From a virus (taxonomy: Duplodnaviria > Caudoviricetes), in IMG/VR virus record IMGVR_UViG_2863357390_000001: a stretch of DNA of 64,000 nt; one strand, given 5' to 3'. The notes under the pieces are model-generated. The model worked only from the letters and a program-made list of their open reading frames with translations. It did not search any database and was not told the DNA's origin. Positions within the stretch are counted from its first letter, which is position 1; each line of letters begins with the position of its first letter. A program made the translations under genes and the position numbers. This document shows positions 2,192 through 41,451 of this stretch, piece after piece.

Positions 2192-2824
2192 GTGATCATG
2201 ACCAAGGTGGTGCTGGACCACCGCAACCCGCAGACCGTCGAGGATCTCCGAAACGCCTACCAAATGCACGTCCGCGTCCGGGAGATCGCCGAGGGCCTGC
2301 CCGACCCGGACGGCGGCAGGCTGCTGTGGGGCCTGCACGGCACGACCCTGCTCGTGCAGACCGGAGCGGCGGTGTCCCCGCTCGCCCTGCCCGCCGGGTA
2401 CGCCGTCTCGGTCCACTCCGCGAACCTGGCATCCCGCCTCGACCGGATCACCGCCGGTTCGGTCGTGCGGTGGGCGGTCATCGCCAACCCGACCCGGGCA
2501 CGGGCCAAGGCCACCGCCGTCGGCCCCGACGGCGTCCCGGTGCGCAAGTCGAGGGGCCAGCCCACCCCGGTCGCCCTGGGCGAACGCAACGAGTGGATCA
2601 CCCGCAGGCTCGCCCCGGCACTGGAGATCACCGCGCTGACCGGCAGGCCGCTGCCCGCCGCCGCCGGCACCCAGATCCGCACGAGGCACCGCGTGCACCA
2701 CTCCCGGCACCTGTGGCAGGGCACCGCGACCGTGGCCGACCCGGACGTCCTGCGCGGTCTGGTGTCGTCCGGGATCGGCCACGGCAAGGCGTTCGGCTGC
2801 GGCCTGCTGCTGGTGGCGTCGTGA
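2192..2824 (+). CDS. cas6e: Type I-E-like Cas6e (Cse3/CasE) crRNA-processing endonuclease
   Basis: N-terminal AYQMH, IANPT, C-terminal G-loop GIGHGKAFGCGLLLV. Confidence 0.9.
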   Translation: MIMTKVVLDHRNPQTVEDLRNAYQMHVRVREIAEGLPDPDGGRLLWGLHGTTLLVQTGAAVSPLALPAGYAVSVHSANLASRLDRITAGSVVRWAVIANPTRARAKATAVGPDGVPVRKSRGQPTPVALGERNEWITRRLAPALEITALTGRPLPAAAGTQIRTRHRVHHSRHLWQGTATVADPDVLRGLVSSGIGHGKAFGCGLLLVAS

Positions 2825-3579
2825 CCTCGCCGACCCGACTCGTCTGGGGACTGGCCGGACACCCCGAGCCGACCGGGGCCGTCGCGAACCTGTTCGCCGA
2901 CCGGCCCGGGATGTGCGTGATGTGCGGGCTGTCCGCCGACCGCACCGCCGACGCCGCCCGTGCGACCGGCGCGAACTTCACCGACCAGTACCTGTACCGC
3001 CGGCCGGACTCGGACCGGATCTGCCCGGCGTGCGTGTGGTGCTGCTCGGGGAAACCCCCGGCGACGCTGCGCATGTGGACGGTCGTCGCCGCGATCGGCG
3101 CGACCCTGCCCGACAACCACCCCAAGTGCTGGCTGCCCAGCCAACCAGGTTTGTGCCTGACCAACCGGGCCGCGCCCGGTGTCGTCGCCGACATCCTCGC
3201 CGCCCCACCGGAGGGGGCGTGGCTGGTCACCGTCGCGACCTCCGGGCAGAAACACGTCCTGCCCTACGGGAAAGTCAACCACGGCGGTCCCGAGTGGACG
3301 GTCCGAATGGAGAACACCACGATCACCTCCAACGCCCCCACGTGGCGCCGCGTCCTGGGCCACGCCGCCACACTGCGCGCGGCCCGCCACACCGGCGACG
3401 ACCTCGCCGCCGGGCGGCCCACCCTCGCCGCGATCCGCACCGCCGACGACCTCGACACGTGGAACCACCACCACGCCGGACTCGCCGACCACGTCGGCTC
3501 ACCACTACTCGACCTAGCCCTCTGGTGCCTGACCAAGGAGACGATCCATGACCACGCCCACGCCGCCCCCGTCGCCTGA
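2821..3579 (+). CDS. csf1: Type IV Csf1 (Cas8-like) subunit
   Basis: Zn-finger CVMCG...CPACVWC and SGQKHVL motif; first gene of the IV-B order. Confidence 0.8.
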   Translation: MTSPTRLVWGLAGHPEPTGAVANLFADRPGMCVMCGLSADRTADAARATGANFTDQYLYRRPDSDRICPACVWCCSGKPPATLRMWTVVAAIGATLPDNHPKCWLPSQPGLCLTNRAAPGVVADILAAPPEGAWLVTVATSGQKHVLPYGKVNHGGPEWTVRMENTTITSNAPTWRRVLGHAATLRAARHTGDDLAAGRPTLAAIRTADDLDTWNHHHAGLADHVGSPLLDLALWCLTKETIHDHAHAAPVA

Positions 3580-3907
3580 CGAGCTGATCCAGGCCACCGT
3601 CGCCTGGCTCAACGCGCTGCTCGACTCGGCCTCGGCCGACGTGCTCGGCGTCGCCCACTACTGGGACCGCGCCCAGTCCGCGCTGATCACCGCCGCCACC
3701 GCCGACACGGTCGGGGAGGCGGTCACCACCGCCGCCCGCAAACTCCAGATCGAGACCACCCAGGCCCGCACCGACACCGCGCTGCTGGAGGCGTGCGCGG
3801 TGATCGCCGCCGACTACCCCGCCTGGCAGGCGAGGGTGGAACGCGAAGCCGTCTACCTCGTCGCCCTCGCCCGTGTCGCCCGCACCGCCCGGAAGGCCAC
3901 CCGATGA
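3548..3907 (+). CDS. cas11: Type IV-B small subunit (Cas11-like)
   Basis: Small all-helical protein (YWDR...ARKLQI) between csf1 and csf2. Confidence 0.75.
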   Translation: MTTPTPPPSPDELIQATVAWLNALLDSASADVLGVAHYWDRAQSALITAATADTVGEAVTTAARKLQIETTQARTDTALLEACAVIAADYPAWQARVEREAVYLVALARVARTARKATR

Positions 3908-4794
3908 CCACCACGCTGACGATCCCGTTCACCGCCACCCTGGTGGCGCCGCTGCACCACGGCGCCGGCACCGCCGGCAACACCAGCCTCATCCGCACCC
4001 AGCGGATGGTCCGCCCCGACGGCACCGTAGCGCAGGTGCCGTTCGTGTCCGGGAACTCGCTGCGCCACGGCCTGCGCGCCGGCCTGGCCTGGCACGCCGT
4101 GCGCACCCTGGGCGTCGAGGACGGCGGCCTGTCCAAGGCCGTGGTCGACCTGCTGTGGTCCGGCGGCGCGATCACCCGCACCGGCTCCCAGACCGACCTC
4201 GCGCTGCTGCGCCGGGTCGAGCACCTGTACCCGCCGCTCGCCCTGATGGGGTACAGCGCCGCGGCCGACATGACCGCGGGCACCCTCGCCGTCGACCAGC
4301 TGCACCTGGTCTGCGCCGAGAACGCGTGGCGGCTGCCCGGGCGGCTGGCCGGCGACCCACGCGCCGCACGGCCGGCGTCGGCGTTCCGCGGCGAGGAATT
4401 CGGGACTCGCCACGACGTCGCCGGGACCCCGGTCGACCGGTACACCGCGCTGGCCGACGAGCTGGTCCCCACCACCACCCAGATGATCTACGAGCACCAG
4501 GTCGTGCTGCCCGGTGCCGCCCTGTACGGCGGGCTCGTGCTGACCCCGGCGGCCACCGACGCACAGCTCAGGGTCCTGCTCGTCGCCCTCGACGAGATCA
4601 TGCCCGCCGACCGGGACGGCGTCCGCGTCCTGCAACTTGCCGCGAAGCGCGGCGTCGGCTACGGCACCTGCCGGGTCGACCTCGACCTGCCGGACGGCCT
4701 GCCCACCCCCGCCGACGCCCGCGCCTGGTGGGAAGCCCACCTCGTCGAGCACGCCGAGGAGATCACCGCCCTGTGGCAGGAGATCGTCGCGTGA
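3904..4794 (+). CDS. csf2: Type IV Csf2 (Cas7-like backbone RAMP)
   Basis: TLVAPLHHG, VPFVSGNSLRHGLR, LLWSGG, G-rich AKRGVGYG. Confidence 0.9.
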   Translation: MTTTLTIPFTATLVAPLHHGAGTAGNTSLIRTQRMVRPDGTVAQVPFVSGNSLRHGLRAGLAWHAVRTLGVEDGGLSKAVVDLLWSGGAITRTGSQTDLALLRRVEHLYPPLALMGYSAAADMTAGTLAVDQLHLVCAENAWRLPGRLAGDPRAARPASAFRGEEFGTRHDVAGTPVDRYTALADELVPTTTQMIYEHQVVLPGAALYGGLVLTPAATDAQLRVLLVALDEIMPADRDGVRVLQLAAKRGVGYGTCRVDLDLPDGLPTPADARAWWEAHLVEHAEEITALWQEIVA

Positions 4795-5504
4795 GCCCGG
4801 TCGTCCCCGCCGGCACCGTGGTCGACACCACCGACGACCCGCGCTGGCAGCCACTGGTCGTCACCGCGACCCTGACCGAGCCGGTCGTCGGCCTGGACTC
4901 GCAGCCGCTGTGCCTGGACGGGCCGCTGGCGTGGTGCGCCGCGCAGCTCGCCCTGGCCGACGAGGCCGGCCTGCCGCCGCTGCGGCACGACTGGGCACCC
5001 GACCTCGCCCTGCCCCTGGCCACGTGGACCGCCGCGCCCTCCCGGCCCGACACCGACTCGCGGCTGCGCGCCGCCGACGGCGAACGGGTGTGGGGGTGGG
5101 CGTGCTCGGCCGCGTCGTGGACCGCGCTCGGCCACACCACCGTCGAGATCCGCCGCCGTCCCCCGGTCGGAGAGATGGCCCGGTTCACCGCGGACGGCAA
5201 GCACCACTCCGGGTTGGGCCCGTACAAGGCCCGGGACACGCCGATGGCCGCGACCTGGGTCGACACGGTCGTCTGGCACGCCCTGGGCGACCCCGACGCC
5301 GTCGCCGGGCTGCTCGCCCACCTGGGACACCTGGGCCGGGCGACCCGGCACGGCCACGGCCGCATCCAGACGATCACCGTCGAACCCGGCCGGGACCGGG
5401 ACGCGTGGCGGTCCCGGCCGCTGCCCGACCCGACCGGCCCGGCCGGGTCGATCCGCGCCCCCTACCACCACCACTCCCGGAGGATGCCGTGCCGCACCCC
5501 GTGA
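4791..5504 (+). CDS. csf3: Type IV Csf3 (Cas5-like RAMP)
   Basis: LDGPLAW, WACS, G-loop LGRATRHGHGRI. Confidence 0.85.
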   Translation: MSPVVPAGTVVDTTDDPRWQPLVVTATLTEPVVGLDSQPLCLDGPLAWCAAQLALADEAGLPPLRHDWAPDLALPLATWTAAPSRPDTDSRLRAADGERVWGWACSAASWTALGHTTVEIRRRPPVGEMARFTADGKHHSGLGPYKARDTPMAATWVDTVVWHALGDPDAVAGLLAHLGHLGRATRHGHGRIQTITVEPGRDRDAWRSRPLPDPTGPAGSIRAPYHHHSRRMPCRTP

Positions 5505-6394
5505 TCGCCTGGGACGGGCAGCCGGTCGGCGACCGCTACCCGGCGATGGACGTCGTCCCCGGCGTGCTGCCCTGGTCCACCCTGGACCAGGACTCCCGGC
5601 CGTGGCAGGACCGCAAGAAGCACTGGCACGACCTGGGCGTCCGCGACACCACGCCCCGCGACCACGCCGCGGGGATGATGACCACCGGACGGCACGGCGC
5701 CCTCTCGGGCGGGGTGTCGCGGTTCGACCCGGTGCTCGCCGAGGTCCTGTACCGGTGGTACTGCCCGCCGGGCGGGCGGGTGCTCGACCCGTGCGCGGGC
5801 GGACCCGTACGCGGCCTGGTCGCCTCCCACCTGGGCCTGGAGTACGTCGGCGTCGACCTGGACGCCGACCAGGTCGACGCGAACACCGCCGTCGCGGCGG
5901 GTTCGCCGTACCCGTCCCCGGCCTGGTTCGCCGGGGACGCGCTGACCTACGCCTGGCCGGTCTCCGACGGGGACGCGGACATGGTGCTGACCTGCCCGCC
6001 CTACCACGACCGGGAGCGCTACTCCGACGACCCCCGCGACCTGTCCACCATGGACTGGCCCGCGTTCCTCGACGCCCACCGCGCCGTGGTCGGCCGGGCC
6101 GCCGCGGCGCTGCGCGAGGACCGGTTCCTCGCGTGGGTGATCTCCGACGTCCGCGACCGGCACGGCCACCTGCGCGGCCTGCCCCGCCACGCCTGGCAGC
6201 ACCTGGAGGACGCCGGACTGCACGTCGTCAACGAGCACGTGCTGCGTGCCCCGGTCGGCACCGCGCACAAACGCATGCGCCCGCCGTGGCAGGCGTGCCG
6301 CACCGCGACCCGCCGCCACCAGATCGTCCTGGTCGCGGTCAAGGGCGACCGGCGTGCCGCGACCCGCGCCGTGTCCGGGGGTGGCGGGTGCTGA
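5501..6394 (+). CDS. Phage-type N4C/N6A DNA methyltransferase
   Basis: FDPVLAE, SAM-binding VLDPCAGG, catalytic TCPPY followed by ERYSDDPRDLS. Confidence 0.85.
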   Translation: MIAWDGQPVGDRYPAMDVVPGVLPWSTLDQDSRPWQDRKKHWHDLGVRDTTPRDHAAGMMTTGRHGALSGGVSRFDPVLAEVLYRWYCPPGGRVLDPCAGGPVRGLVASHLGLEYVGVDLDADQVDANTAVAAGSPYPSPAWFAGDALTYAWPVSDGDADMVLTCPPYHDRERYSDDPRDLSTMDWPAFLDAHRAVVGRAAAALREDRFLAWVISDVRDRHGHLRGLPRHAWQHLEDAGLHVVNEHVLRAPVGTAHKRMRPPWQACRTATRRHQIVLVAVKGDRRAATRAVSGGGGC

Positions 6395-7161
6395 TCGACT
6401 CGACCCGGATCACCGACCGCGACCGCGACCACTGGGACGCGCTGGAGCGCTACGACCGGATGCTCGCCGCCGACCCGGCCCTGGACCGCAAGGCCGAGAG
6501 CGCCGTCGCCGAGGTCCGGGCGTTCCTGGACGCGGGCGAGGCGTACGTGTCGGTGTCCTGGGGCAAGGACTCCGTCGTCGTCGCCCACCTGGCAGCCCTG
6601 GCCGAGCTGACGGTCCGGGTGGTGTGGGTCCGGTCGGTCCTGTTCGAGACCCCCGAGTGCGACGCGGTGCGCGACGCGTTCCTCGACGCCCACCCGCAGG
6701 TGCGCTACGAGGAGATCGCGGTCGAAATGCGGAACCCGAAACGCGGCGAACCGGGCTACGACACCCGGCACGCCGACCCGCACGCCGACCACCAGGACGT
6801 CCTCCGGGAGACCCTGACCGGCCGGTGGATCTCCGGGCTGCGCGGCGAGGAGTCCCGGATGCGCCGCATGTCCATCGCCCACCGGGGCCTGTCCACGAAG
6901 AACACGTGCCGGCCGATCGGCCGGTGGGACGCCACGCACGTGTTCGCCTACCTGTGGCGCGAGAAACTCCCGGTGCACCCGGTGTACGCGATGACCGCCG
7001 GCGGACACTACGACCGCCGCTGGCTGCGGGTGCACCCGCTGGGGTCGGCACCCCCGGCCCGGTCCGCCGTGCACGGCCGGGACATGGACTCGTGGGAGGA
7101 CGCCTACTACGGGGACGTGCTCGCCGCCGCGAGGCAGGCCCGCGCCCACCTGTGGCGGTGA
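6388..7161 (+). CDS. CysH-like (PAPS reductase / PP-loop) protein, type IV-B associated
   Basis: PP-loop VSWGKDS, GLRGEESRMR, PIGRW...VFAYL. Confidence 0.85.
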   Translation: MLIDSTRITDRDRDHWDALERYDRMLAADPALDRKAESAVAEVRAFLDAGEAYVSVSWGKDSVVVAHLAALAELTVRVVWVRSVLFETPECDAVRDAFLDAHPQVRYEEIAVEMRNPKRGEPGYDTRHADPHADHQDVLRETLTGRWISGLRGEESRMRRMSIAHRGLSTKNTCRPIGRWDATHVFAYLWREKLPVHPVYAMTAGGHYDRRWLRVHPLGSAPPARSAVHGRDMDSWEDAYYGDVLAAARQARAHLWR

Positions 7162-7174
7162 CCGGCTGAACGAC

Positions 7175-7207
7175 CAACGCCCCGCCCGACAACCGGGCGG
7201 GGCGTTG
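7175..7207. terminator. Intrinsic terminator closing the cas operon
   Basis: 13-bp inverted repeat CAACGCCCCGCCC/GGGCGGGGCGTTG between convergent genes. Confidence 0.8.
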
Positions 7208-7224: not shown

Positions 7225-7686
7225 TCAGGGGCCGTCGGGGTAGACGACGGCGCGGAGTGCCGCGGCACCGATCCTGTAGATGGCCTCGGCCGCGTCGTCG
7301 CTGTGGTCGATCCACCAGCGGGCATCGGTCCGACCGGTCAGCACCTCGCGCATGGCGTCGATCCAGACGTCGCAGAACGCCGGGGTGAATCCGTTGACGC
7401 CGATCGACGCGACCAGCTCTTCGACGTGGCGTTCGACAGCGGGCGCGGCCCTGCCTCGGATGGCTTCGGCCCAGGCGATCTGTTTGGTGCTGCCGGTGAG
7501 CGGGGGCAGGTCGAGGTCGGCGGTGACCCGGGCGCCGGCGCGGTGTTCGGCGGCGGTGTGGCAGGCGAGGCAGGCGCGGCGTTCCTGGCGGCGGACTTCG
7601 CCGCGGTGTTGGTTGCGGACGTTGGTGCCGGTGATGTTGATGGTGTCCTCGTGTCCGCAGGTGCGGGTGATCGTGTACTGGGCCAT
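7225..7686 (-). CDS. Hypothetical phage protein
   Basis: CGH...CLAC and LTGSTKQIAWAEAIR motif; GGAGG RBS. Confidence 0.75.
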   Translation of the reverse strand: MAQYTITRTCGHEDTINITGTNVRNQHRGEVRRQERRACLACHTAAEHRAGARVTADLDLPPLTGSTKQIAWAEAIRGRAAPAVERHVEELVASIGVNGFTPAFCDVWIDAMREVLTGRTDARWWIDHSDDAAEAIYRIGAAALRAVVYPDGP

Positions 7687-7709
7687 GGTGTCCTCCGTCG
7701 CTCACCCAA

Positions 7710-10971: not shown

Positions 10972-11283
10972 CTACTCGCCGTCGCCGTTCCCGTGGTCGC
11001 GGTACCACCGCAGCCACGACCAGGGCCTCACCCACACACCCCACGGCATCATCGACTCCTCGGTCCCGGTCAACCCCGCGACCCCGACCTCGATCAGCCG
11101 CATCCCGCCCAGGACGACCACCACGACCGCGGGCGCGACGGCCGGGGCCAGCCACCACGGCCACCGGACGTCCCGGGCCACGTCGGACCACCTGTCCGCC
11201 TCGACCGCGACGACCACGCACCACCCCAGGCCCAAGGCCGCGCTGACGGTTTCCCTGAGCAGCTCCCGGTTCGTCTTCTTCAC
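10972..11283 (-). CDS. Small membrane protein
   Basis: GTGA coupling to cas8e; two hydrophobic segments. Confidence 0.6.
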   Translation of the reverse strand: MKKTNRELLRETVSAALGLGWCVVVAVEADRWSDVARDVRWPWWLAPAVAPAVVVVVLGGMRLIEVGVAGLTGTEESMMPWGVWVRPWSWLRWYRDHGNGDGE

Positions 11284-13151
11284 GACGACTCCTCTCCTTC
11301 CCGTTCCGTGTCGTCCGGTGCGGCGCCCGGAGCACGTCGCCCCGGCGTGGTCAGCGCCGCCTCGGGATCCCACCCGTTGATCAGCCGCGACCGCAGCGCC
11401 GACACCGAGACCACGCAGCGCTCGTCACGCGCCCACTGCGCCTGGGTCTTCTCCTCCCCGAACGCCACCAGCATCGGCGACGGCCTCCCCCCGCCCGCAC
11501 CGCGTCCGGACCCGGGCTTCCGCCCGCCGGACCGCCGGGCCCTCGCGCCCGCCGCCGCGGCGGCGAACGCCCGCGCCTGTACCGGGGTGACCTTTCTCGG
11601 ATAGGGCTTGGTGGGCAGGTCGGTGAAGTACGCCACGTACCGCTCCAACGCGACCCCGGCCTTCGCACGCATCAACATGCCCGACGAGCCGCCGAACGGC
11701 AGCCGGTCCAAGGCCTGCGCGCACAGCCCGACCAGTCGCCGGCCGTAGTCCAGGCACACCCCGGCCAGCTCCTCGTGGGACGGGTCGGTGTCCAGCGCGG
11801 CCAGCCGGCGGGTCGTGTCGGACCACAGCCGCTCCAGCGCGTAGGCGTCGGGCGTGAGCCTGTCGCCGAGGGTGACGTGCGGCAGCGCCTCGGCCGCGGC
11901 GACGGCCAGGCCGCGCAGCGTGGCCGCCGTCTGGTGGTCGAGGAACGCCACCACGCGCGCGGTGGGCTCGGCGGCGTGCACCCCGACCGGTCCCAGGTCG
12001 ACCCGGCCGTTGTGGTCGCCGACGGCCACGGAGCCGTGCGTGTTGTAGACGGCCTGGGACACCCACACCCGCAGCGGCAGGTCGGCGGGCAGCAGGCCGC
12101 GCCGGGCCGCGCCGACGGCGTGCACCAGTGCGCCGCTGTGCCAGCGGCGGGGGTCGGCGGCGGGCGGGACGTGCAACGGCCGGGTGAGCAGCCACCACCG
12201 GGGCTGGTGGCCGTACGGGTCGAACGCGTCGGGGTCCGCCGTGCCCTGGCCGTCCCGGGAGTCGCGGCACAGCAGGGTCGGGTCCAGGCGGTGGTAGTGG
12301 TTCCAGTACCCGGCGACCCGGTCCCCGTCGTGCCACGCCCACCGGGCCACCCGGCCGTCCCGGTCGGGGAACAGCCTCAGCCGGCGCGCGGGCATCGTGG
12401 CCAGCTCCAGCCGCCCGGCCGGGACGCGGTCGACGCGGATGCCCGCCGGCGGGCCCTCGTCGCGTTCCCACTCCGGGGCGTCGCCCGGCGCGCGGGGCGC
12501 GGGCGGCAGGTTGAGCAGCAGCGTGTCCTTGAGGGTGGCGCCGAGCACGACCAGCCGGACGGTGGCGCCCAGCGGGCCGATCCGGGACCCGTAGACCTTG
12601 TTCCCCTTCCCGGCGGGGTCGCCGGGCGCGGCGGGTTTGATCCCGCCGGTGTCGTAGGCCATGCGGACGAGCAGGTTCCGGGCCGCCTCGCCCGGCTCCC
12701 ACGGCGGGTGGTCCGCGCCCCGGTACAGGCCGGGGTGGAACCACGCCGCGCCCTGCCCGCCCAGCCAAGCGGGGTGCAGCTCGACCGCGCCCCGGTTCGG
12801 CTCGGCCAGGTGGGCGCACTGGGCGAAGGGCCGGTCGGGGTCGTACAGGTCGAACCGGTTCGCCCACCGGTCGAGGTAGTCGGCGATCCGGCCGTGCGGG
12901 TCCAGGGTCGGCGCCCGCCAGGCGGCGTCCCACCCGTCGTCGTCGACGGGTCCGGCGGCGGCCTCGTAGACGGCCAGCAGCAGCCGCAGCAGGACCAGGC
13001 CCTCGCCGGACAGGCCGAGGCGGGCGAGGTTGTGCCGGTGCGCGGACTGCAGCGCCTCGCGCAGTCCCACCTCCCGTTCGCCCTCGCCCCCGGTGGTGTA
13101 CACCGGGATCCAGGGCCGGGAGAGCAGGTCGTAGGACGGGGCGCCGGTCAC
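11280..13151 (-). CDS. cas8e: Orphan type I-E Cas8e (Cse1/CasA) homolog with C-terminal extension
   Basis: YDLLSRPWIPV, EVGLREAL, LLRLLLAV, RFDLYDPDRPFAQ, EAARNLL...AYDTGGIK, LGATLKDTLLLNL. Confidence 0.85.
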   Translation of the reverse strand: MTGAPSYDLLSRPWIPVYTTGGEGEREVGLREALQSAHRHNLARLGLSGEGLVLLRLLLAVYEAAAGPVDDDGWDAAWRAPTLDPHGRIADYLDRWANRFDLYDPDRPFAQCAHLAEPNRGAVELHPAWLGGQGAAWFHPGLYRGADHPPWEPGEAARNLLVRMAYDTGGIKPAAPGDPAGKGNKVYGSRIGPLGATVRLVVLGATLKDTLLLNLPPAPRAPGDAPEWERDEGPPAGIRVDRVPAGRLELATMPARRLRLFPDRDGRVARWAWHDGDRVAGYWNHYHRLDPTLLCRDSRDGQGTADPDAFDPYGHQPRWWLLTRPLHVPPAADPRRWHSGALVHAVGAARRGLLPADLPLRVWVSQAVYNTHGSVAVGDHNGRVDLGPVGVHAAEPTARVVAFLDHQTAATLRGLAVAAAEALPHVTLGDRLTPDAYALERLWSDTTRRLAALDTDPSHEELAGVCLDYGRRLVGLCAQALDRLPFGGSSGMLMRAKAGVALERYVAYFTDLPTKPYPRKVTPVQARAFAAAAAGARARRSGGRKPGSGRGAGGGRPSPMLVAFGEEKTQAQWARDERCVVSVSALRSRLINGWDPEAALTTPGRRAPGAAPDDTEREGEESS

Positions 13152-13864
13152 GCGTCGTCACCGGTGGGCCGGGCGGCGTGGACGGTGTCGTGGCCCTCGG
13201 TGGTGACGGTGACCACGAGGATCGGGTCGTCGCCGTCCCGGCGGACGGTGACGCGCACGGCGTCGTAGGCGGCGGTGTCGTCGAGGTCCCACTCGTCGAC
13301 GTACCGTCCGGCTAGGCGCAGCGCGGCGTCCTCGTGGTCCTCCTGCCCGCCGTACTCGTTCTCGCCCAGCATGTCGCGGTCGGATTCGACGCGCTGCCAG
13401 TCGCCGTCGATCTCGTGGGTCTCGATGGTGTAGGCGAACTTGCACTGGGGGACGCCGTCGACGTCGGTGCGGTGCCACCAGACGGTGCCCTGCTCGGCGC
13501 AGTCGGCGAGCTGGCGGACCTCGTACTCGTAGCGGGCGTCGGCTTCGGTCCGGTCGTCGGTGTCGGCGTAGTGGGTGCCGTTGTTGTCCATGGTGCGCAC
13601 GGCCCACCGGACGACCTGCTCGGCGTGTCCGCGTCGGGAGAGCACGGTGTCGGTGTTCGGGTCGGTCACGGGCGGCTCCTCGACCCAGACGCGGCCGGCG
13701 ACGTACTGGATGAGGTCGACGCCGAAGGTGGTCTGGCCGATCTTGTCGGTGCAGTCGGAGGAGCGCTTGACCGATCCCCGGTTGATGGTCTCGACGAGGG
13801 CGTCGACGGTCTCTTTCAGGGCTTCGACGACGGTGGTCTCGTAGTCGCTGCGGAGGATGCGCAT
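13148..13864 (-). CDS. Acidic hypothetical protein
   Basis: GGAG RBS; GTGA-coupled to cas8e. Confidence 0.7.
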   Translation of the reverse strand: MRILRSDYETTVVEALKETVDALVETINRGSVKRSSDCTDKIGQTTFGVDLIQYVAGRVWVEEPPVTDPNTDTVLSRRGHAEQVVRWAVRTMDNNGTHYADTDDRTEADARYEYEVRQLADCAEQGTVWWHRTDVDGVPQCKFAYTIETHEIDGDWQRVESDRDMLGENEYGGQEDHEDAALRLAGRYVDEWDLDDTAAYDAVRVTVRRDGDDPILVVTVTTEGHDTVHAARPTGDDA

Positions 13865-17387: not shown

Positions 17388-19400
17388 TCATGCCGGGACC
17401 AACTCGCGCACGAACCTGAACCCGGTGTCGGTGCGCTCCAGTTGCCCGGTGTCCACACGGCCGTTCAGCGACTTGTAGACCCACGCCGGGGACCGGACCG
17501 CCTTTCGGGCCACGTCGACCAAATCCCCGGCCCGGATCTCCTCCACGCCCTGGGCCTGGAGTTCGAGCAGCCGCTGCTCGAACAGCGCGGCGGCCTCGGC
17601 GGGCGTGGCTTTGGGTCCGGCGGGTCGCTCCCAGTCGCCGTCCGTGCCGCCGATGGGCAGCGGGTCGTCGATGCCCGGCTGCACGGAAGGGTCCGGGTCG
17701 TCGGCACCGGGCCGCCACGGCTCCTCGAAGTCGTCGCCGAGCAGATCCCGCACCGGCGCCTCGTCGTCTTCGTCGTCCACGACCGGCACCGGCACCGGGG
17801 TGGGCGGCACAACGGGTGCTGCGGGTGCGCTCGGGGCCGCGCCGACCATGCTCTCGACCGGAACCCGGGTGGTGTACAGCTCGCCGAACGCCGCCGTGGT
17901 CATCGCGTCCAAATCGTCGCCGTGCAGCCGTGCCCAGCGGGCCAGCATCCGGAGCTGGTCGTCGGAGATCCCCAGGGTCCGGCCAGGGGTGGTCCACAGC
18001 GCCCGGTCGACGCCGGGGGCGACCAGGTAGCAGCACGCGGGCCGTTCGTTCTTCCACCGTGACGGGTCGGCACCGGCCTCCAGGACCTCGTCGGGCATGG
18101 CGAACGCGGCGTCTTCCTGCTCGGCGACGCCGAAGCAGAGCACCGCGCCGAACTGCGCGCGCGCGGCCACGTCGAGCGACACGTACGAGGGCCTCTGCAT
18201 GGACAAGGTGAACTCGACGCCCACCGACCGGATGCGCTCCATGGACTGGACGAACGCCTTGTCGCCCAGGAACAGGCCGGATCCCTCCTCGATGTGCACG
18301 CGCAGCCGGGGAATGCCGCACCCGGGCTCCCAGTTCTTCAGGCCGCGGCGGCCGAGGTAGTCGGCCCGCGCCGGTACGACCTTGTCCCGCAGAGCCCGCA
18401 TCAGCGCGTGGGCCTCGGCCTCGGTGCGGATGACCCACCGGATCCCCTCGGCCAGCGGCCCCAGGGACTGCGCGCCCTTCACCGTGTCGACGTAGATCGT
18501 GTAGGTGTCCCGGCGGGTGAACTCCTCGGCGAAGATCACGTAGGCGCCGAAGGTCTTGCCCGCACCGGTCATTCCCATGATCAGGAGCGCGGTCTCGCCC
18601 CATCCGGGTCGGTGCAACGGCAGCATCATCGGCCGCCCGTCCTCGTACACCCCGATCCGGTACGGCTGCGCCGGCGTGCCGCCCAGCGCGGACGGTTCGG
18701 TGTACGGGGTGGACTCGCGCAGCATGTCCCGGCGGACCAGGGTCAGCTCGGCCTGCGACGAGTCGTCCGGGGACGGGGTGATGCGCGCACCGCCCGGCGG
18801 GAGCCGGAGCACCGACTCGAGCTTGGACAGGGAGCGCTGGGCGTCGTCGACGGTCTCGCCGCCCTCCAGCGACAGCGGCCCGGCCAGCCGGTCCTCCGAC
18901 TTCTCCTTCGGCGTGTAGGCCGAGCCCTCGAGCGCACCGCCGACCTTGGTGGACACCTCGTCCCACAGCGACCGGCGGGCGCCCTCGGTCGCGTCCTGGG
19001 TGCGGCGCAGCACCCGGCGTACGATCCACGCCCCGGTCACCGACGCCCCCGCCCACCCCCACACGCCCAGCAGCGGCTGCGACACCGGCCCGGCCATCAC
19101 CGCGGCGATCTGGTGGGCGCCGACCAGGATCGGCGTGCCCAGCGCGAACACCCGGCCCAGCATGTTGCGCCGTCGGTCCAGGTGGTGGACCAGGACGACC
19201 ATGCCCGCGGTCGTGGCCCCGATGCCCAGGGTCATCCACGGCAGCGACTCCGGCGTGGCCAGTCCCCACAGGGTGCACGACAACGCGAAGTCGCCGGCCA
19301 GTCCGGCGACGGGCGCGGCGGCCACGGCCAGGCGGGACGCGGCGTGCTTGGCCACCCGGCCCCCGGCGTCCTTCGACGCTCTGATCAGCGGGTTAACCAC
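17388..19400 (-). CDS. traB: FtsK/SpoIIIE-like TraB plasmid-transfer DNA translocase
   Basis: N-terminal TM region, Walker A GMTGAGKT, Walker B VHIEEG, SMQRPS, C-terminal wHTH. Confidence 0.85.
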   Translation of the reverse strand: MVNPLIRASKDAGGRVAKHAASRLAVAAAPVAGLAGDFALSCTLWGLATPESLPWMTLGIGATTAGMVVLVHHLDRRRNMLGRVFALGTPILVGAHQIAAVMAGPVSQPLLGVWGWAGASVTGAWIVRRVLRRTQDATEGARRSLWDEVSTKVGGALEGSAYTPKEKSEDRLAGPLSLEGGETVDDAQRSLSKLESVLRLPPGGARITPSPDDSSQAELTLVRRDMLRESTPYTEPSALGGTPAQPYRIGVYEDGRPMMLPLHRPGWGETALLIMGMTGAGKTFGAYVIFAEEFTRRDTYTIYVDTVKGAQSLGPLAEGIRWVIRTEAEAHALMRALRDKVVPARADYLGRRGLKNWEPGCGIPRLRVHIEEGSGLFLGDKAFVQSMERIRSVGVEFTLSMQRPSYVSLDVAARAQFGAVLCFGVAEQEDAAFAMPDEVLEAGADPSRWKNERPACCYLVAPGVDRALWTTPGRTLGISDDQLRMLARWARLHGDDLDAMTTAAFGELYTTRVPVESMVGAAPSAPAAPVVPPTPVPVPVVDDEDDEAPVRDLLGDDFEEPWRPGADDPDPSVQPGIDDPLPIGGTDGDWERPAGPKATPAEAAALFEQRLLELQAQGVEEIRAGDLVDVARKAVRSPAWVYKSLNGRVDTGQLERTDTGFRFVRELVPA

Positions 19401-19401
19401 G

Positions 19402-19782
19402 TCACCCCTCCCACGTCGTCTTCTTGCGCTTCTGCTCCGGGGTCATGCCGCGTTTGAAGTACTTGAAGTACAGGGCGTACGACTTGACGGCCATGCGTCC
19501 GGCGTGCAGCACCGCGTCGGCGGACTGCCGCAGCGCCCAGGCGACGATCTTCGCCCGGGCCTTGGCGGTCAGGCGGCCGAACGGGTCGCTGATCTGGCGG
19601 CCCTCCTCGTCGTAGCGGCGGAACTGGAAGGTCGCCAGGCTCACCTGGACCTGGTCGGCCTGGTAGGAGAGCAGGAACGCGAACTCCCGGCACGCGTCGC
19701 GTACCACCACGGTGAATGCCTCCAGGCTGGCGCCGGATTGCAGTTCCACCCGGTACAGGTCGTCGAAGCGGTCGTCACTCAC
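19402..19782 (-). CDS. TraA-like plasmid transfer protein
   Basis: Basic helical protein (AKARAKIVAWAL...YFK) directly upstream of traB. Confidence 0.55.
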   Translation of the reverse strand: MSDDRFDDLYRVELQSGASLEAFTVVVRDACREFAFLLSYQADQVQVSLATFQFRRYDEEGRQISDPFGRLTAKARAKIVAWALRQSADAVLHAGRMAVKSYALYFKYFKRGMTPEQKRKKTTWEG

Positions 19783-20051: not shown

Positions 20052-20551
20052 CGGGTCAGCCGATCCAGGTCACGGCGCTCCAACCGGCCGTGGTCACGCA
20101 ACGCGGCGGCCACGGCGGTCACCGCGTCCCAGTTGAGGTCGAGCAGACCCTCGACCTCGACGTCGAGCCCGGCCGCGTCCAACTCGGACTCCCGATCGCG
20201 CAGCGCCGCGGCGACCTCCCGGAAATCGCCGCGGTTGCACCGGGCCCGGTGCACCTGGCGGCGGGCGGCCGAGGGCCGGACGCCCCGGGCGACGCGGCAG
20301 CGGATCTCGGCGGCCGGTCCGACCGCGGCGACCACGGCGGCGACGTCGGGGTGCTCGTCCACGCGGCGGGACAGCTCGCTGCGGCCCTGCACGTGCCAGT
20401 CGGACAGCCACGGCTTGCGCCAGGCCAGCCATACTCGGGCGACGGGCAGCCCGAGCAGTATGCCGATCACGGCGTGCGCGGCCTCGTGGACGGAGATCGC
20501 GTGCAAGTCGTCGGCGAGGCGTTCGGCGACGGCGGCGGGCGGGGCGGTCAC
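20048..20551 (-). CDS. HExxH zinc-metalloprotease-like protein (M41/M50-like)
   Basis: VHEAAHAVI, AVGPAAE, GDF motifs. Confidence 0.7.
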   Translation of the reverse strand: MTAPPAAVAERLADDLHAISVHEAAHAVIGILLGLPVARVWLAWRKPWLSDWHVQGRSELSRRVDEHPDVAAVVAAVGPAAEIRCRVARGVRPSAARRQVHRARCNRGDFREVAAALRDRESELDAAGLDVEVEGLLDLNWDAVTAVAAALRDHGRLERRDLDRLTR

Positions 20552-21159
20552 CGGTCGTCCCCGGTCTGCGGGGTGGACAGCCAGTCGGCGAGCCGGGTGA
20601 TCACGACGGGGTCGTTCGAGCCGGACAGCCGCCGGGCCTGCTCGTAGCGGTCGGTGTTCTCGGCGGACACGGGGGCGAGGACGGGAGCGGCGAGCCGTTT
20701 GGCCGTCTTGATCGCGTCGCGCACGATCCGGGCGTGGTCGAACCCGAGCCGGTCGTACAGGCCGTCGTCGACGCGCCGCCATTCGGCGGTGGCCGCGTCG
20801 TCCCCGGCGACCGGGACGGGCAGGAACGTGGCCACGGTGACGTAGGCGAGGGTGGCGTAGTCGCCCCGGGGGTCGCGGCCCGGGTCGGCGTAGCCGCCGA
20901 CGTGGTGCCAGCGGCCGGGCACGACGATCCCGGTCTCCTCGGCGAGTTCGCGGATCGCGGCGGCCAGCGGGGTCTCGTCGGGGTGGACGTGCCCGCCGGG
21001 CAGCGCGGGTTGGCCCTGGTAGGGGTCCTTGCCGCGGGCGACGGTGAGCACCCACCAGTCGTGGCCGACGCGGTGCAGGACGACGGCGTCGGCGGTGAGC
21101 GCGGGATGCCGGCGGTCCGGCCGGTCCGGGTTGTGGGGTGTGCTGGTACCCGGGAGCAT
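20548..21159 (-). CDS. NUDIX hydrolase
   Basis: ALPGGHVHPDETPLAAAIRELAEETG, RDPRG, GDDA, LGFDH. Confidence 0.93.
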   Translation of the reverse strand: MLPGTSTPHNPDRPDRRHPALTADAVVLHRVGHDWWVLTVARGKDPYQGQPALPGGHVHPDETPLAAAIRELAEETGIVVPGRWHHVGGYADPGRDPRGDYATLAYVTVATFLPVPVAGDDAATAEWRRVDDGLYDRLGFDHARIVRDAIKTAKRLAAPVLAPVSAENTDRYEQARRLSGSNDPVVITRLADWLSTPQTGDDR

Positions 21160-21212
21160 CGGGGTCCCTCCTGGCTGTCGGTGGCGTTGCGGTTGTCGTG
21201 GTCGGGGTGGGG

Positions 21213-21264
21213 CCCGGTCGGGGCGGGGACGTGCCGGTCAGCGTGTCGACCCGCCCCGACCGGG
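21213..21264. terminator. 15-bp inverted repeat (terminator or RNA stem)
   Basis: CCCGGTCGGGGCGGG / CCCGCCCCGACCGGG. Confidence 0.6.
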
Positions 21265-39269: not shown

Positions 39270-39761
39270 ATGGGTCGTGGAGGTCAGGGAAGGCCGAGGA
39301 TGCCGACCGCGGTGGCCGAACTGAACGGCTACCGCAAGGACCGGATCAACCACGACGAGCCAGTCCCGGCCGCGGGTGAGGTGGAGCCGCCGGCCTGGAT
39401 GGTCGCCGTGCATCAGTTGGCCGACGACGGTGAGGAGTCGGCACTGCAGGTGTGGCGCCGGCTGGCCCCGGACCTGATCGCGAAGAAGGTCCTCACGCCG
39501 TGGGACGTCGAGGCGTTCGCCGTGTACTGCACCTCGGTGGTCGGCTACCGGCGGGCTGCGATCGAGGTGGCCGTGGAGGGCATGACGACCCGGGGGTCGC
39601 AGGGGGTCGTGAAGAACCCGGCGGTGACGGCGATGAAGGACTGCGCGGACCTGATGAACCGGTACGGCGCGAAGTTCGGTCTGACCCCCTCGGACCGGGC
39701 GGCGTTGGCGATCAAGCCCGACGAGGGCAAGGGCAAGGGGGCGGAACGCCTGCTCGGCTGA
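39270..39761 (+). CDS. Terminase small subunit (P27 family)
   Basis: GRPRMPT...PPAW...KNPAV...KFGLTPSDR. Confidence 0.9.
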   Translation: MGRGGQGRPRMPTAVAELNGYRKDRINHDEPVPAAGEVEPPAWMVAVHQLADDGEESALQVWRRLAPDLIAKKVLTPWDVEAFAVYCTSVVGYRRAAIEVAVEGMTTRGSQGVVKNPAVTAMKDCADLMNRYGAKFGLTPSDRAALAIKPDEGKGKGAERLLG

Positions 39762-39771
39762 GGAGGGCGCG

Positions 39772-41451
39772 GTGGCTCTCCCGAGATGCGGGTACGTCCT
39801 GGACGACCTGGAGTGCCGGGAGCGCGGGGACCACTTCTGCGAGCCGCGGGCGTTGCACGCGAAGGCGTTTTTCGAGGAGATCCTGGTCCACACCAAGGGC
39901 ACGTGGGCGCGGAAAAGGTTCGTCCTGTCGGCGTGGCAGGACACCGAGATCATCGCCCCGATCTTCGGTCCGGTGCGGTGGTCGGAGGAGTTCGGCTGCT
40001 ACGTGCGCGTGATCCGGATCGTGTGGATCGAGCTGGCGCGCAAGCAGGGCAAGTCCGAGATCCTGGCCGGGATCGCGCTGTACATGCTGTGCGCGGACGG
40101 CGAGGAGCAGGCCGAGGTCTACGGGGCGGCGTGCGACAAGGACCAGGCGCGGAAGGTGTTCGACGTCGCGGCGCGGATGGTGCAGTTGTCACCGGTGCTG
40201 TCGAAGCGGCTGGTGGTCAAGCAGCACGAGAAGCGGATCGTGGACGAGCGGACGGGTTCGTACTACGAGGTGATCGCGGCGGACGCGGCGGGCAACCTGG
40301 GGCACAACCCGCACTGCATCGTGTTCGACGAGGTGTTGACGCAGAAGAACGGTGCGCTGTGGGACTCGCTGCGCACGGCGATGGGCACGCGGACGCAGGC
40401 GTTGATGGTCGCGGCGACCACGCCGGGGGACGATCCGTCGTCGTGGTGCGGCGGGATGCACGACGAGATGCAGCGCGTCGCGGACCAGCCGGAGCGGGCT
40501 CCGCACATCCACGTGTTCCTGCGCAACACGCCGCCGGACGCGGACCCGTGGGACGAGACCCTGTGGGGTTACGCGAATCCGGCGCTCGGCGAGTTCCTGT
40601 CGATCCAGGCGTTGCGGGACGAGGCGGTCGAGGCGCGCAACGACCCGTCGAAGGAGAACTCGTTCCGCCAGTACCGGCTCGCGCAGTGGGTGCGGCAGTC
40701 GCATCGGTGGATGCCGATGCACCTGTACGAGGACTGCGTCGGCGAGCCGTGGCTGGCCCCGGACTACCGGCGGCGGGAGTTGTCGGGGCGGGTGGCGTGG
40801 GCCGGGTTCGACCTCGCCGCGAAGTTCGACCTCGTCTCGTGGTGCCTGCTGGTGCCCGATGGCCACGAGGTGCACGCGTTGTGGCGGTTCTGGCTCCCGG
40901 AGTCGGGACTGGCCTTTTTGGACAAGCACAACGAGGGGAAGTTCTCCCGGTGGGCGCGTGAGGGCTGGTTGACGGTGACCGAAGGGGACGTCGTCGACTA
41001 CGACCGCGTCTACACCGACATCGAAACGGACGCCCGGGACTTCGACATTCGCGCGTCGGACGCGGACCAGTGGTCGATGGCGCCGGTGATCCAGGAGATC
41101 GAGAAGCGCACCGGGGTGTGGGAGATCGATGCCTACAACAACACCTACCAGCGCATGTCCCCGGGGATGACGGAGCTGATGGCGCTGGTGAAAGCGCGCC
41201 GATTCCGGCACCACGGGAACCCGGTCGCCCGGTTCTGCTTCGACGCGGTCGAGGTGCGCAAGGCCCCGTACGACCCGGAGCTGATCCGGCCGGACAAGCC
41301 CGAGCGTGACAAGTCCGGGAAGCGGATCGACGCGGTGCCGTCGGCGGCGATGGCGGTGTCGGCGTGGAAACGGGACCCGCTGCCCGAGACGAAACCGACC
41401 GAGCCTGGTCGGCGGATCGTGGTGTCGTCGCGGAGAGGGAGGTCCGCGTGA
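39772..41451 (+). CDS. Terminase large subunit
   Basis: ARKQGKS Walker A, FDEV Walker B, AGFDLA, KRIDAV. Confidence 0.95.
   Translation: MALPRCGYVLDDLECRERGDHFCEPRALHAKAFFEEILVHTKGTWARKRFVLSAWQDTEIIAPIFGPVRWSEEFGCYVRVIRIVWIELARKQGKSEILAGIALYMLCADGEEQAEVYGAACDKDQARKVFDVAARMVQLSPVLSKRLVVKQHEKRIVDERTGSYYEVIAADAAGNLGHNPHCIVFDEVLTQKNGALWDSLRTAMGTRTQALMVAATTPGDDPSSWCGGMHDEMQRVADQPERAPHIHVFLRNTPPDADPWDETLWGYANPALGEFLSIQALRDEAVEARNDPSKENSFRQYRLAQWVRQSHRWMPMHLYEDCVGEPWLAPDYRRRELSGRVAWAGFDLAAKFDLVSWCLLVPDGHEVHALWRFWLPESGLAFLDKHNEGKFSRWAREGWLTVTEGDVVDYDRVYTDIETDARDFDIRASDADQWSMAPVIQEIEKRTGVWEIDAYNNTYQRMSPGMTELMALVKARRFRHHGNPVARFCFDAVEVRKAPYDPELIRPDKPERDKSGKRIDAVPSAAMAVSAWKRDPLPETKPTEPGRRIVVSSRRGRSA

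What the first reader, a model, noticed from the sequence alone, without database searches (positions are those of the whole stretch)
5501..7161. DNA methyltransferase inserted between csf3 and the cysH-like gene
Seen: an MTase with DPCAGG and TCPPY motifs, translationally coupled on both sides. Established: CysH-like PP-loop proteins include DNA-modification enzymes such as DndC and IbrA-like proteins. Inference: the MTase and CysH may form a DNA-modifying module that the Csf complex recruits, possibly for guided or epigenetic marking, or for protection against restriction. This would offer a function for the unexplained IV-B cysH.
Basis: partly seen in the sequence, partly recalled or inferred. 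Interest (0 to 1): 0.8.

Follow-up and report, generated by a model that had tools for sequence, protein, structure and literature searches.

The report
DNA methylase tied to IV-B cysH
A phage-type DNA methyltransferase gene sits inside a mobile-element type IV-B CRISPR operon next to its unexplained cysH-like gene. Related actinobacterial loci repeat this pairing, even with an unrelated methylase, which gives a testable hint that this CRISPR type works through DNA marks.

Summary
Window 2192-7161 is one tightly packed operon: cas6e-like, csf1, cas11-like, csf2, csf3, methyltransferase (5489/5501-6394), cysH-like (6388-7161).

The methyltransferase has DPCAGG and TCPPY and overlaps both neighbours. 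It is a circularly permuted relative of beta-class amino-DNA-methyltransferases. It belongs to a large phage family that is usually fused to a ParB N-domain and placed before the terminase.

It is not a one-off insertion:
- Among de-duplicated Cas6e-bearing IV-B loci with both flanks visible, 20 of 33 have a DNA methyltransferase touching cysH.
- Fifteen carry this family, on either side of cysH. Five carry an unrelated Dam-like D12 enzyme.
- Only 1 of 43 IV-B loci without cas6 has one.
- Of 29 methyltransferase genes in these loci, 24 flank cysH.
- In the window's subclade the gene is as diverged as the cas genes.

It is also not universal, since 13 of 33 loci lack it. Swapping in an unrelated family argues against specific docking on Csf.

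Best reading (about 0.45): an autonomous DNA-marking enzyme functionally tied to cysH. Main rival (about 0.35): an ordinary anti-restriction orphan methylase sharing the operon. Guided marking by Csf is untested. No paper I could search analyses this link.

The parts
2192..2824 (+). cas6e-like endoribonuclease gene, first gene of the operon
   Evidence: Pfam CRISPR_assoc PF08798 at E 5e-27. PADLOC Cas6e at E 5e-28.
2821..3579 (+). csf1 (type IV large subunit)
   Evidence: TIGR03114 at E 1e-6, below its cut-off. Local profile built from relatives.
3548..3907 (+). cas11-like small subunit
   Evidence: No library hit. Assigned by position, by size, and by homology to the same-position gene in about 120 IV-B loci.
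3904..4794 (+). csf2 (Cas7)
   Evidence: TIGR03115 at E 1e-7, below its cut-off. tblastn gives 44-59% identity to relatives.
4791..5504 (+). csf3 (Cas5)
   Evidence: TIGR03116 at E 2.5e-18 over 219 of 223 profile positions, below its cut-off.
5489..6394 (+). amino-DNA-methyltransferase gene (alternative start 5501). This is the subject of the finding.
   Evidence: AF2 model with mean pLDDT 83.
5786..5803 (+). motif I, DPCAGG (SAM binding)
   Evidence: Read from the sequence. D, P, A, G, G are invariant in the family.
5990..6004 (+). motif IV, TCPPY (catalytic loop, Cys in place of the usual D/N/S)
   Evidence: Read from the sequence. C-P-P is invariant in 22 family members.
6388..7161 (+). cysH-like PP-loop gene (CasCysH)
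   Evidence: PAPS_reduct at E 9e-12. PDB profile hit to E. coli PAPS reductase at E 1e-8. AF2 model with pLDDT 93, nearest PAPS/APS reductases.
6556..6573 (+). PP-loop SWGKDS of the cysH-like protein
   Evidence: Read from the sequence. Invariant in alignment A1.
7180..7202 (.). 9-bp G+C hairpin between the operon end and the convergent gene 7228-7701(-); likely the operon's terminator
   Evidence: Read from the sequence. Not called by the T-tail scan.

Best explanation
The gene at 5489-6394 encodes a probably active, stand-alone amino-DNA-methyltransferase (N6-adenine or N4-cytosine; target unknown). It belongs to a phage-wide family. In one lineage of mobile-element-borne, Cas6e-bearing type IV-B loci of Actinomycetota, this gene has become a long-standing, co-transcribed and translationally coupled partner of the cysH-like gene. 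I infer that it methylates DNA of the element and its host on its own, without being docked on the Csf complex. I also infer that the link to cysH is functional: the methyl mark matters for whatever the Csf/CysH machinery does at DNA level. The simplest version is a 'self' mark kept next to its effector, as in restriction-modification gene pairs. Shown here: the gene, its motifs, its family, the operon, and the recurrent cysH-adjacent placement with two unrelated methyltransferase families. Inferred: enzymatic activity, DNA as the substrate, and any interplay with CysH or Csf.
For: Gene and motifs:
- Both halves match beta-class DNA amino-methyltransferases in swapped order (2zie E 4e-18, N4C-MTases, CcrM, MboIIA, PvuII).

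Recurrence:
- 20 of 33 de-duplicated Cas6e-type loci have a DNA methyltransferase touching cysH, against 1 of 43 loci without cas6 (Fisher p 9e-9, not corrected for relatedness).
- Further examples lie outside that tally: L190, L191, L192, L279, L280.

Placement:
- Of 29 methyltransferase genes in 41 loci, 14 sit in the csf3|cysH junction, 10 right after cysH, 3 before cas6 and 2 elsewhere.

Non-homologous replacement:
- D12/Dam-class enzymes (PF02086, E 1e-14 to 1e-20) occupy the same junction in L007, L021, L043 and L134. A weak D12-like gene follows cysH in L008.

Age:
- The window's methyltransferase clade is monophyletic (8 rows, support 99).
- Its pairwise distances track those of CysH (r 0.89; 0.82 without L133), and it is as diverged as the cas genes.

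Link to the PAPS-reductase family outside CRISPR:
- L189 and L246 carry an IbrA-like protein, this methyltransferase and ParB_N without csf genes.
- Arthrobacter phage Salgado carries ParB, PAPS reductase, ParB, methyltransferase, TerS.
Against: - 13 of 33 Cas6e-type loci, including a 69%-identical CysH relative (L106), have cysH without a methyltransferase. So do essentially all other IV-B loci. Their neighbours show no other methyltransferase family. The enzyme is therefore dispensable for the core IV-B function.
- The family is overwhelmingly an orphan phage methyltransferase with no PAPS-reductase neighbour (about 76 of 80 viral loci). It typically sits in the same cargo-rich region before the terminase where these IV-B cassettes also sit.
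- The csf3|cysH junction also hosts other cargo: HTH genes, Cas6, a cupin and unknown ORFs. It may simply be an insertion-tolerant slot.
- Adjacent genes co-diverge through linkage alone.
- The loci were retrieved with peptide patterns taken from the window's own CysH clade, so the sample is biased.
- No experimental or expression data could be obtained.
Confidence: 0.45

Rival explanations
1. It is an ordinary orphan anti-restriction methyltransferase. The phage or mobile element carries it to protect its DNA from host restriction enzymes. It shares an operon with the IV-B genes only because both are cargo of the same early or pre-terminase region, or of a counter-defence gene cluster. It has no mechanistic interplay with CysH or Csf.
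For: - More than 560 viral contigs encode relatives. Most are ParB-fused and without PAPS-reductase neighbours.
- Relatives sit just before the terminase in Mycobacterium, Listeria and Streptomyces (pro)phages.
- IV-B cassettes lie in the same region: RusA or RuvC upstream, terminase or replication genes downstream.
- The methyltransferase is missing from 13 of 33 related loci.
- No cognate nuclease is adjacent.
Against: - Simple juxtaposition of two cassettes predicts methyltransferases at either end of the operon. Observed: 24 at the cysH end or inside the csf3|cysH junction, against 3 before cas6.
- Two unrelated families were inserted at the same internal junction several times.
- The gene has been kept in the operon over a divergence equal to that of the cas genes.
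Confidence: 0.35
2. The methyltransferase and CysH form one DNA-modifying module that the Csf ribonucleoprotein recruits to RNA-specified sites, giving guided epigenetic marking or a two-step hypermodification.
For: - Translational coupling with csf3 and cysH.
- IV-B-linked forms lack the ParB_N DNA-binding domain that most phage relatives carry, so another targeting partner is conceivable.
- Cas6e is present, and the host genome has two further Cas6e loci that could supply crRNAs.
- One short contig carries an in-frame cas6e-fragment::methyltransferase fusion followed by cysH.
Against: - Replacement by an unrelated D12 enzyme, and placement on either side of cysH, argue against a conserved docking interface.
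- Short ParB-less forms also exist as plain prophage orphans.
- cysH occurs without a methyltransferase in most IV-B loci.
- The fusion contig lacks csf1-csf3, is a single 2.1-kb assembly, and looks like a deletion remnant.
- No interaction test could be run.
Confidence: 0.12
3. It is an RNA (for example m2G-type) methyltransferase that modifies the RNA bound by the Csf complex, not DNA.
For: - The motif order I then IV, and the fold model, superpose best on Trm11, TrmN and PrmA-type enzymes (rmsd 3-4 A, TM 0.43-0.48).
- There is a weak profile hit to archaeal Trm11 (E 7e-5).
- A relative gives a weak RsmD-like Pfam hit.
Against: - The strongest sequence matches of both halves are DNA amino-methyltransferases.
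- The family is usually fused to the DNA-binding ParB N-domain.
- The enzymes that replace it in sister loci are Dam-class DNA adenine methyltransferases.
- The Foldseek ranking reflects chain order, which hides permuted DNA methyltransferases.
Confidence: 0.05

Closest known systems
Type IV-B CRISPR-Cas (csf1-cas11-csf2-csf3 plus cysH-like), as defined by Makarova et al. and reviewed in PMC8175902 and PMC7038947
   Same: It has the same core genes in the same order. The cysH-like gene comes last. There is no CRISPR array in 64 kb and no DinG. It is carried on a mobile element.
   Different: It carries a Cas6e-like gene in front; Cas6 was reported in only 12 IV-B instances (PMC7038947). It carries a DNA methyltransferase between csf3 and cysH. 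No text I could search discusses a methyltransferase in IV-B. Only a figure legend in Shmakov et al. 2018 lists the abbreviation 'N6-MTase'.
Beta-class amino-DNA-methyltransferases (Pfam PF01555; e.g. Thermus TTHA0409 2zie, CcrM, M.PvuII, M.MboIIA)
   Same: Both conserved halves align: the SAM-binding DPFAGG-type motif I and the xPPY catalytic loop.
   Different: The halves are in the opposite order (motif I before motif IV), which is a circular permutation. The catalytic loop reads (S/T)CPPY, with an invariant Cys where D, N or S is usual. Base specificity is unknown.
Phage ParB_N-methyltransferase fusions (phrog_498; e.g. Mycobacterium phage Vincenzo gp1, Listeria phage B054 gp77)
   Same: The methyltransferase domains are homologous (34-41% identity over about 90% of the protein). 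Both are orphans with no nuclease partner and lie in phage early or pre-terminase regions.
   Different: The window's protein and all IV-B-linked forms lack the ParB N-domain. They are embedded in a cas operon instead of standing before the terminase.
IbrA/IbrB-like pairs (PAPS-reductase/DUF3440 plus ParB-like protein) of prophages
   Same: A PAPS-reductase-family PP-loop protein is genetically linked to DNA-associated partners. The same methyltransferase clade occurs inside such a module (L189, L246).
   Different: The window's CysH-like protein is short (257 aa) and has no DUF3440. No ParB protein is in the operon; Csf proteins stand where ParB would be. The function of IbrAB itself is unknown.
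DndC/SspD (DNA phosphorothioation) and BrxP of BREX type 4. These are PAPS-reductase-family enzymes used for DNA marking; this comparison rests on my own knowledge and on PMC8175902.
   Same: The PP-loop superfamily is the same, and DNA modification is the idea in common.
   Different: There are no Dnd, Ssp or BREX partner genes in the operon. The window's protein has no cysteine after residue 174, so the reductase and phosphorothioation chemistry proposed for those enzymes is unlikely (PMC8175902).

Membership tests
[quoted passage not shown] | csf1, csf2 and csf3 present | tested here: met
   TIGR03114/5/6 hits at E 1e-6, 1e-7 and 2.5e-18. All are below the curated cut-offs. They are backed by 40-59% identity to the same genes in dozens of IV-B loci.
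[quoted passage not shown] | cas11-like small-subunit gene between csf1 and csf2 | tested here: inconclusive
   The 119-aa ORF at 3548-3907 has no library hit. A local profile links it to the same-position gene in about 120 loci.
[quoted passage not shown] | cysH-like accessory gene adjacent | tested here: met
   PF01507 at 45.8 bits against a cut-off of 22.5. Its relatives lie next to csf3 in about 170 loci.
[quoted passage not shown] | no CRISPR array, no Cas6/Csf5, no DinG | tested here: not met
   No array was found in 64 kb, and no DinG is in the operon. A Cas6e-like gene is present, so this is an atypical IV-B variant.
Beta-class N6/N4 amino-DNA-methyltransferase (PF01555) | SAM-binding motif I (FxGxG type) | tested here: met
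   DPCAGG is present; D, P, A, G, G are invariant. It aligns to motif I of 2zie, CcrM and PvuII.
Beta-class N6/N4 amino-DNA-methyltransferase (PF01555) | catalytic (D/N/S)PP(Y/F) motif IV | tested here: inconclusive
   The motif is TCPPY. PPY is kept, but the first residue is an invariant Cys. It aligns to TSPPY of 2zie.
Beta-class N6/N4 amino-DNA-methyltransferase (PF01555) | motif order IV ... TRD ... I | tested here: not met
   Motif I (residues 100-105) precedes motif IV (168-172). The PDB profile alignment maps query 150-227 to chain 23-101 and query 81-134 to chain 219-272, which shows a permuted order.
Phage ParB_N-methyltransferase family (phrog_498 / phrog_12517) | full-length similarity of the methyltransferase domain | tested here: met
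   phrog_12517 at E 5e-86 over 283 of 316 positions. phrog_498 at E 3e-48 to its C-terminal half.
Phage ParB_N-methyltransferase family (phrog_498 / phrog_12517) | N-terminal ParB_N domain | tested here: not met
   The protein is 301 aa and the match begins at about residue 19. There is no ParB hit.
Type II restriction-modification system | cognate restriction endonuclease gene adjacent | tested here: not met
   The neighbours are csf3 and cysH. The next gene is a convergent phrog_16123 ORF of unknown function. PADLOC gives only methyltransferase models.
PAPS/APS reductase (CysH, EC 1.8.4.8/10) | PAPS-reductase fold | tested here: met
   Profile hit to 2o8v and 1sur at E 1e-8. The AF2 model has pLDDT 93, and its nearest structures are PAPS/APS reductases at TM 0.5-0.56.
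PAPS/APS reductase (CysH, EC 1.8.4.8/10) | C-terminal catalytic cysteine (ECGLH) | tested here: not met
   The match ends at residue 202. There is no Cys after residue 174 in the window's protein, and none is conserved in A1. This agrees with PMC8175902.
IbrA-like (PAPS_reduct + DUF3440) with ParB-like IbrB | DUF3440 C-terminal domain and adjacent ParB_N gene | tested here: not met
   Only PF01507 hits the 257-aa protein, and no ParB is in the operon. The module does exist with this methyltransferase clade elsewhere.

The most novel reading that the evidence does not exclude
The methyltransferase-cysH pair is an epigenetic self/non-self unit with the logic of a restriction-modification pair. 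The methyl mark protects the element's own DNA, while the Csf complex (array-less, or loaded by Cas6e with host type I-E crRNAs) brings the adenylating CysH-like enzyme to unmarked competitor or host DNA. That would give type IV-B its first mechanism. It would also explain why cysH and a DNA methyltransferase travel together, and why any methyltransferase family will do.
Probability: 0.2. Interest if true: 0.85.

Novelty: new variant of a known kind. Interest (0 to 1): 0.62.

Why it matters
Type IV-B is the one CRISPR-Cas subtype whose function is still unknown. A 2026 paper still calls the biological role unclear and CysH only 'proposed to AMPylate' (PMC13676074). A DNA methyltransferase that repeatedly sits beside cysH is the first comparative clue that CysH/Csf activity concerns DNA and its modification state. 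The clue is strengthened because the methyltransferase comes in two unrelated families and has been kept for a long time in a whole lineage. It also names a tractable set of loci in culturable actinomycetes (Nonomuraea, Corynebacterium, Nocardia, and this 7.35-Mb genome). In these, simple knockouts plus methylome sequencing can test the idea. If the methyltransferase proves to be a plain anti-restriction gene, the result still defines a Cas6e-bearing IV-B variant with a cargo slot at the csf3|cysH junction.

Tried and rejected
- Foldseek of the methyltransferase model: only generic Rossmann methyltransferases at TM 0.4-0.5, because the chain order hides permuted DNA methyltransferases. It is uninformative on DNA versus RNA substrate.
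- Comparing PP-loop integrity of CysH in loci with and without a methyltransferase: SWGKDS is identical everywhere. The loci were retrieved with that very pattern, so the test is circular.
- Looking for another methyltransferase family in the 'none' loci: neighbours are a replication initiator, an AAA_33 kinase, a resolvase, DnaT-like proteins and unknowns.
- CRISPR array search in the window: nothing.
- Even sample of 400 other Actinomycetota species for this CysH clade: no hit, so the element is rare and gave no extra loci.
- Promoter and terminator scan: no sigma-70-like promoter, and no internal terminator between csf3, the methyltransferase and cysH.
- cas6-methyltransferase fusion (P0167/L281): considered as Rosetta-stone evidence for recruitment. 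Set aside because it is a single 2.1-kb contig that lacks csf1-csf3 and looks like a deletion remnant.
Full report
**What is there**

The window is 73% G+C, so ORF lists are full of spurious frames. A third-position GC plot resolves 2192-7161 into seven back-to-back plus-strand genes:

| Coordinates | Gene | Library support |
|---|---|---|
| 2192-2824 | Cas6e-like | PF08798 E 5e-27; PADLOC Cas6e E 5e-28 |
| 2821-3579 | csf1 | TIGR03114 E 1e-6 |
| 3548-3907 | cas11-sized ORF | no library hit |
| 3904-4794 | csf2 | TIGR03115 E 1e-7 |
| 4791-5504 | csf3 | TIGR03116 E 2.5e-18 |
| 5489/5501-6394 | methyltransferase | PF01555, 27.8 bits against a cut-off of 26.7 |
| 6388-7161 | PAPS-reductase-family gene | PF01507 E 9e-12 |

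The finding's range, 5501-7161, therefore holds two genes in two frames. The methyltransferase ends at 6394.

Translation shows VLDPCAGG and LTCPPY. The csf3 stop (5502-5504) lies inside the methyltransferase start region. The cysH GTG (6388) overlaps the methyltransferase stop (6392-6394). A 9-bp G+C hairpin at 7180-7202 separates the operon from a convergent gene. No CRISPR array exists anywhere in the 64 kb.

The locus lies on a mobile element. It has a RuvC-like resolvase just upstream, an FtsK/TraB-like gene, terminase, portal and an integrase further right.

**What kind of methyltransferase**

A 22-member family alignment keeps D100-P101-x-A103-G104-G105 and C169-P170-P171 invariant. A profile search of solved structures hits DNA amino-methyltransferases for both halves, but in swapped order. 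Query 150-227 aligns to residues 23-101 of Thermus TTHA0409 (2zie), and query 81-134 aligns to residues 219-272. N4-cytosine methyltransferases, CcrM, M.MboIIA, DpnA and M.PvuII follow in the list.

The protein is thus a circular permutation of the beta class. Its unusual (S/T)CPPY catalytic loop aligns to TSPPY. Base specificity (N6-adenine or N4-cytosine) cannot be read from sequence.

The AF2 model is good (pLDDT 83). Foldseek returns only same-order Rossmann methyltransferases such as Trm11, TrmN and PrmA at TM below 0.5. That says nothing decisive about substrate.

The family is a phage family:
- phrog_12517 matches over the full length at E 5e-86, and phrog_498 'DNA methyltransferase' matches its C-terminal half.
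- tblastn finds ParB_N-fused relatives in Mycobacterium, Listeria, Enterococcus and Clostridium phages. They sit just before the terminase.
- More than 560 viral contigs carry relatives.
- Relatives at about 45% identity are plain ParB-less orphans in Streptomyces prophages.

**The cysH-like protein**

It has the PP-loop SWGKDS and a confident PAPS-reductase-like model (pLDDT 93). Its nearest structures are PAPS/APS reductases at TM 0.5-0.56, followed by TtuA, NcsA and LarE. There is no cysteine after residue 174, so the reductase's C-terminal catalytic Cys is missing. This was already noted for CasCysH in PMC8175902.

**Is the methyltransferase sporadic?**

Homologue lists of the two proteins already share contig lengths in at least 36 clusters.

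I fetched about 180 loci encoding CysH relatives from genomes, viral contigs and metagenomes. I built local profiles for every operon gene, de-duplicated at 97% CysH identity, and scored only loci with both flanks visible.

| Locus type | Methyltransferase touching cysH | Breakdown |
|---|---|---|
| Cas6e-bearing | 20 of 33 | 9 this family between csf3 and cysH; 6 this family just after cysH; 4 D12/Dam-class between csf3 and cysH; 1 weak D12-like after cysH |
| Without cas6 (many phyla) | 1 of 43 | 1 partial hit of this family about 1 kb after cysH (L175) |

- The four D12/Dam-class loci are L007, L021, L043 and L134 (Pfam E 1e-14 to 1e-20). L043 and L134 are near-duplicates.
- The weak D12-like gene after cysH is in L008.
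- Fisher's p is 9e-9. The Cas6e trait is clade-level, so this is not a count of independent events.
- Thirteen Cas6e-type loci have none, and their neighbours show no other methyltransferase family.
- Extra contexts outside the tally agree. Nonomuraea (L279), L280 and L190/L191 have csf3-methyltransferase-cysH. Nocardia (L192) has csf3-HTH-cysH-methyltransferase.

**Placement and history**

Of 29 methyltransferase genes seen in 41 such loci, 14 lie in the csf3|cysH junction and 10 directly after cysH. Three lie within 1.6 kb before cas6 and 2 lie elsewhere. The enzyme therefore goes with cysH, not with the operon as a block.

On a CysH tree the methyltransferase-bearing loci fall in two well-supported Cas6e clades. 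At least 9 presence/absence changes and 15 state changes are needed.

On a methyltransferase tree the window's form belongs to an 8-row clade (support 99) made only of csf3-methyltransferase-cysH loci. The after-cysH forms make another clade. L047, L130 and L114 are separate captures. The sister group is the plain Streptomyces prophage orphans.

Within the window's arrangement, pairwise distances of the methyltransferase and CysH correlate at r 0.89 (0.82 without the outlier L133). The methyltransferase is as diverged as the cas genes, with mean p-distance 0.40-0.44 against 0.45-0.60. It has therefore been an operon member since the ancestor of that subclade.

**A wider link to PAPS-reductase-family proteins**

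One member of the same methyltransferase clade (L189) lies in a module of HNH, IbrA-like PAPS_reduct+DUF3440, GNAT, methyltransferase and ParB_N, with no csf genes. L246 is similar.

Actinophages carry ParB and PAPS-reductase-like genes before the terminase. In Arthrobacter phage Salgado a methyltransferase is also present.

In the family at large the link is rare: about 4 of 80 viral loci.

**Weighing the readings**

Three facts limit how far it can be taken:
- The enzyme is dispensable, because many loci lack it.
- An unrelated family can replace it, and on either side of cysH. This fits selection for methylated DNA rather than for a docking partner of Csf.
- Both the methyltransferase family and the IV-B cassettes live in the same cargo-rich phage region, and the csf3|cysH junction also takes other cargo.

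My estimates are:

| Reading | Probability |
|---|---|
| Autonomous DNA-marking enzyme functionally tied to cysH (self-mark logic) | about 0.45 |
| Ordinary anti-restriction orphan sharing the operon | 0.35 |
| Csf-recruited joint modification module | 0.12 |
| RNA methyltransferase | 0.05 |

No interaction or expression test could be run.

**Literature**

The papers I could search describe cysH as the key unexplained IV-B gene and speculate on epigenetic roles (PMC7038947, PMC8175902, PMC11656645). A 2026 paper still calls the function unclear (PMC13676074). None discusses a methyltransferase in IV-B loci. The only trace is the abbreviation 'N6-MTase' in a figure legend of Shmakov et al. 2018.

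The element is rare. None of 400 evenly sampled Actinomycetota species has this CysH clade.

**Caveats**

- Loci were retrieved with peptide patterns from the window's own CysH clade.
- Many contigs are short.
- Relatedness inflates simple counts.
- The trees are FastTree or quick IQ-TREE runs.
- All functional statements are inference.

First-reader notes of this scan exist on the same stretch. They did not change this reading.

Noticed in passing
window 11283-13157 (-): There is a lone Cas8e/Cse1 gene (Pfam E 1.6e-47, PADLOC Cas8e E 2e-47, matching only about the first 310 of its 625 residues). No cse2, cas7, cas5 or cas3 was recognised beside it; the neighbouring ORFs have no Pfam hit.
   Followed up: partly
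own genome G000:C1:2559917-2560567 and 3846045-3846692 (L273, L274): The host chromosome has two further, much stronger Cas6e matches (E 7e-67 and 3e-58). It therefore probably carries type I-E systems whose crRNAs the element's Cas6e-like protein and Csf complex could use.
   Followed up: no
L105:7202-7924, L104, L106, L004:1484-2284, L024:2741-3409, L026:5895-7109: A second recurrent cysH neighbour is an unknown protein of about 220-240 aa (13 copies before de-duplication). It lies in the csf3|cysH junction or after cysH, with or without the methyltransferase. It has no Pfam, PHROG or PADLOC hit. The protein atlas gives only a weak lead: phage clusters in which 12-17% of members carry Glyco_transf_25.
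   Followed up: partly
L281:673-1995 (protein P0167): An in-frame fusion joins about 145 residues of Cas6e to a full methyltransferase and is followed by the start of cysH. csf1-csf3 are missing. It comes from a single 2.1-kb metagenome contig and is probably a deletion remnant that kept the methyltransferase-cysH pair.
   Followed up: partly
L189:3546-7814 and L246:2020-6894: Modules without csf genes carry HNH, IbrA-like PAPS_reduct+DUF3440, GNAT, this methyltransferase clade and a ParB_N protein. This may be an ancestral or parallel context for the methyltransferase/PAPS-reductase pairing.
   Followed up: partly
L069, L071, L072, L075, L081, L082 (between csf3 and cysH): Several IV-B loci without cas6 have a second, shorter ORF matching the CysH profile, plus other unknown genes, in a 1.7-3 kb gap between csf3 and cysH.
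   Followed up: no
L003:4028-5062; L019:6298-7455; L087 and L160 just before cysH: Some loci carry a Cas6 of another family in the csf3|cysH junction (PF01881 or PF10040 in L003 and L019; a hit to the local cas6 profile in L087 and L160). In L003 this is in addition to the Cas6e in front.
   Followed up: partly
L138:5228-6076: In one metagenome contig the methyltransferase between csf3 and cysH is split by a stop into two pieces. This is either a pseudogene or an assembly error.
   Followed up: no
window 17391-19442 (-) and 20551-21237 (-): An FtsK/TraB-like gene (phrog_24831, E 1.5e-103) and a NUDIX gene lie between the IV-B locus and the phage structural genes (TerL 39685-41448, portal 41310-42875, integrase 62804-64000). 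The element may be composite.
   Followed up: no
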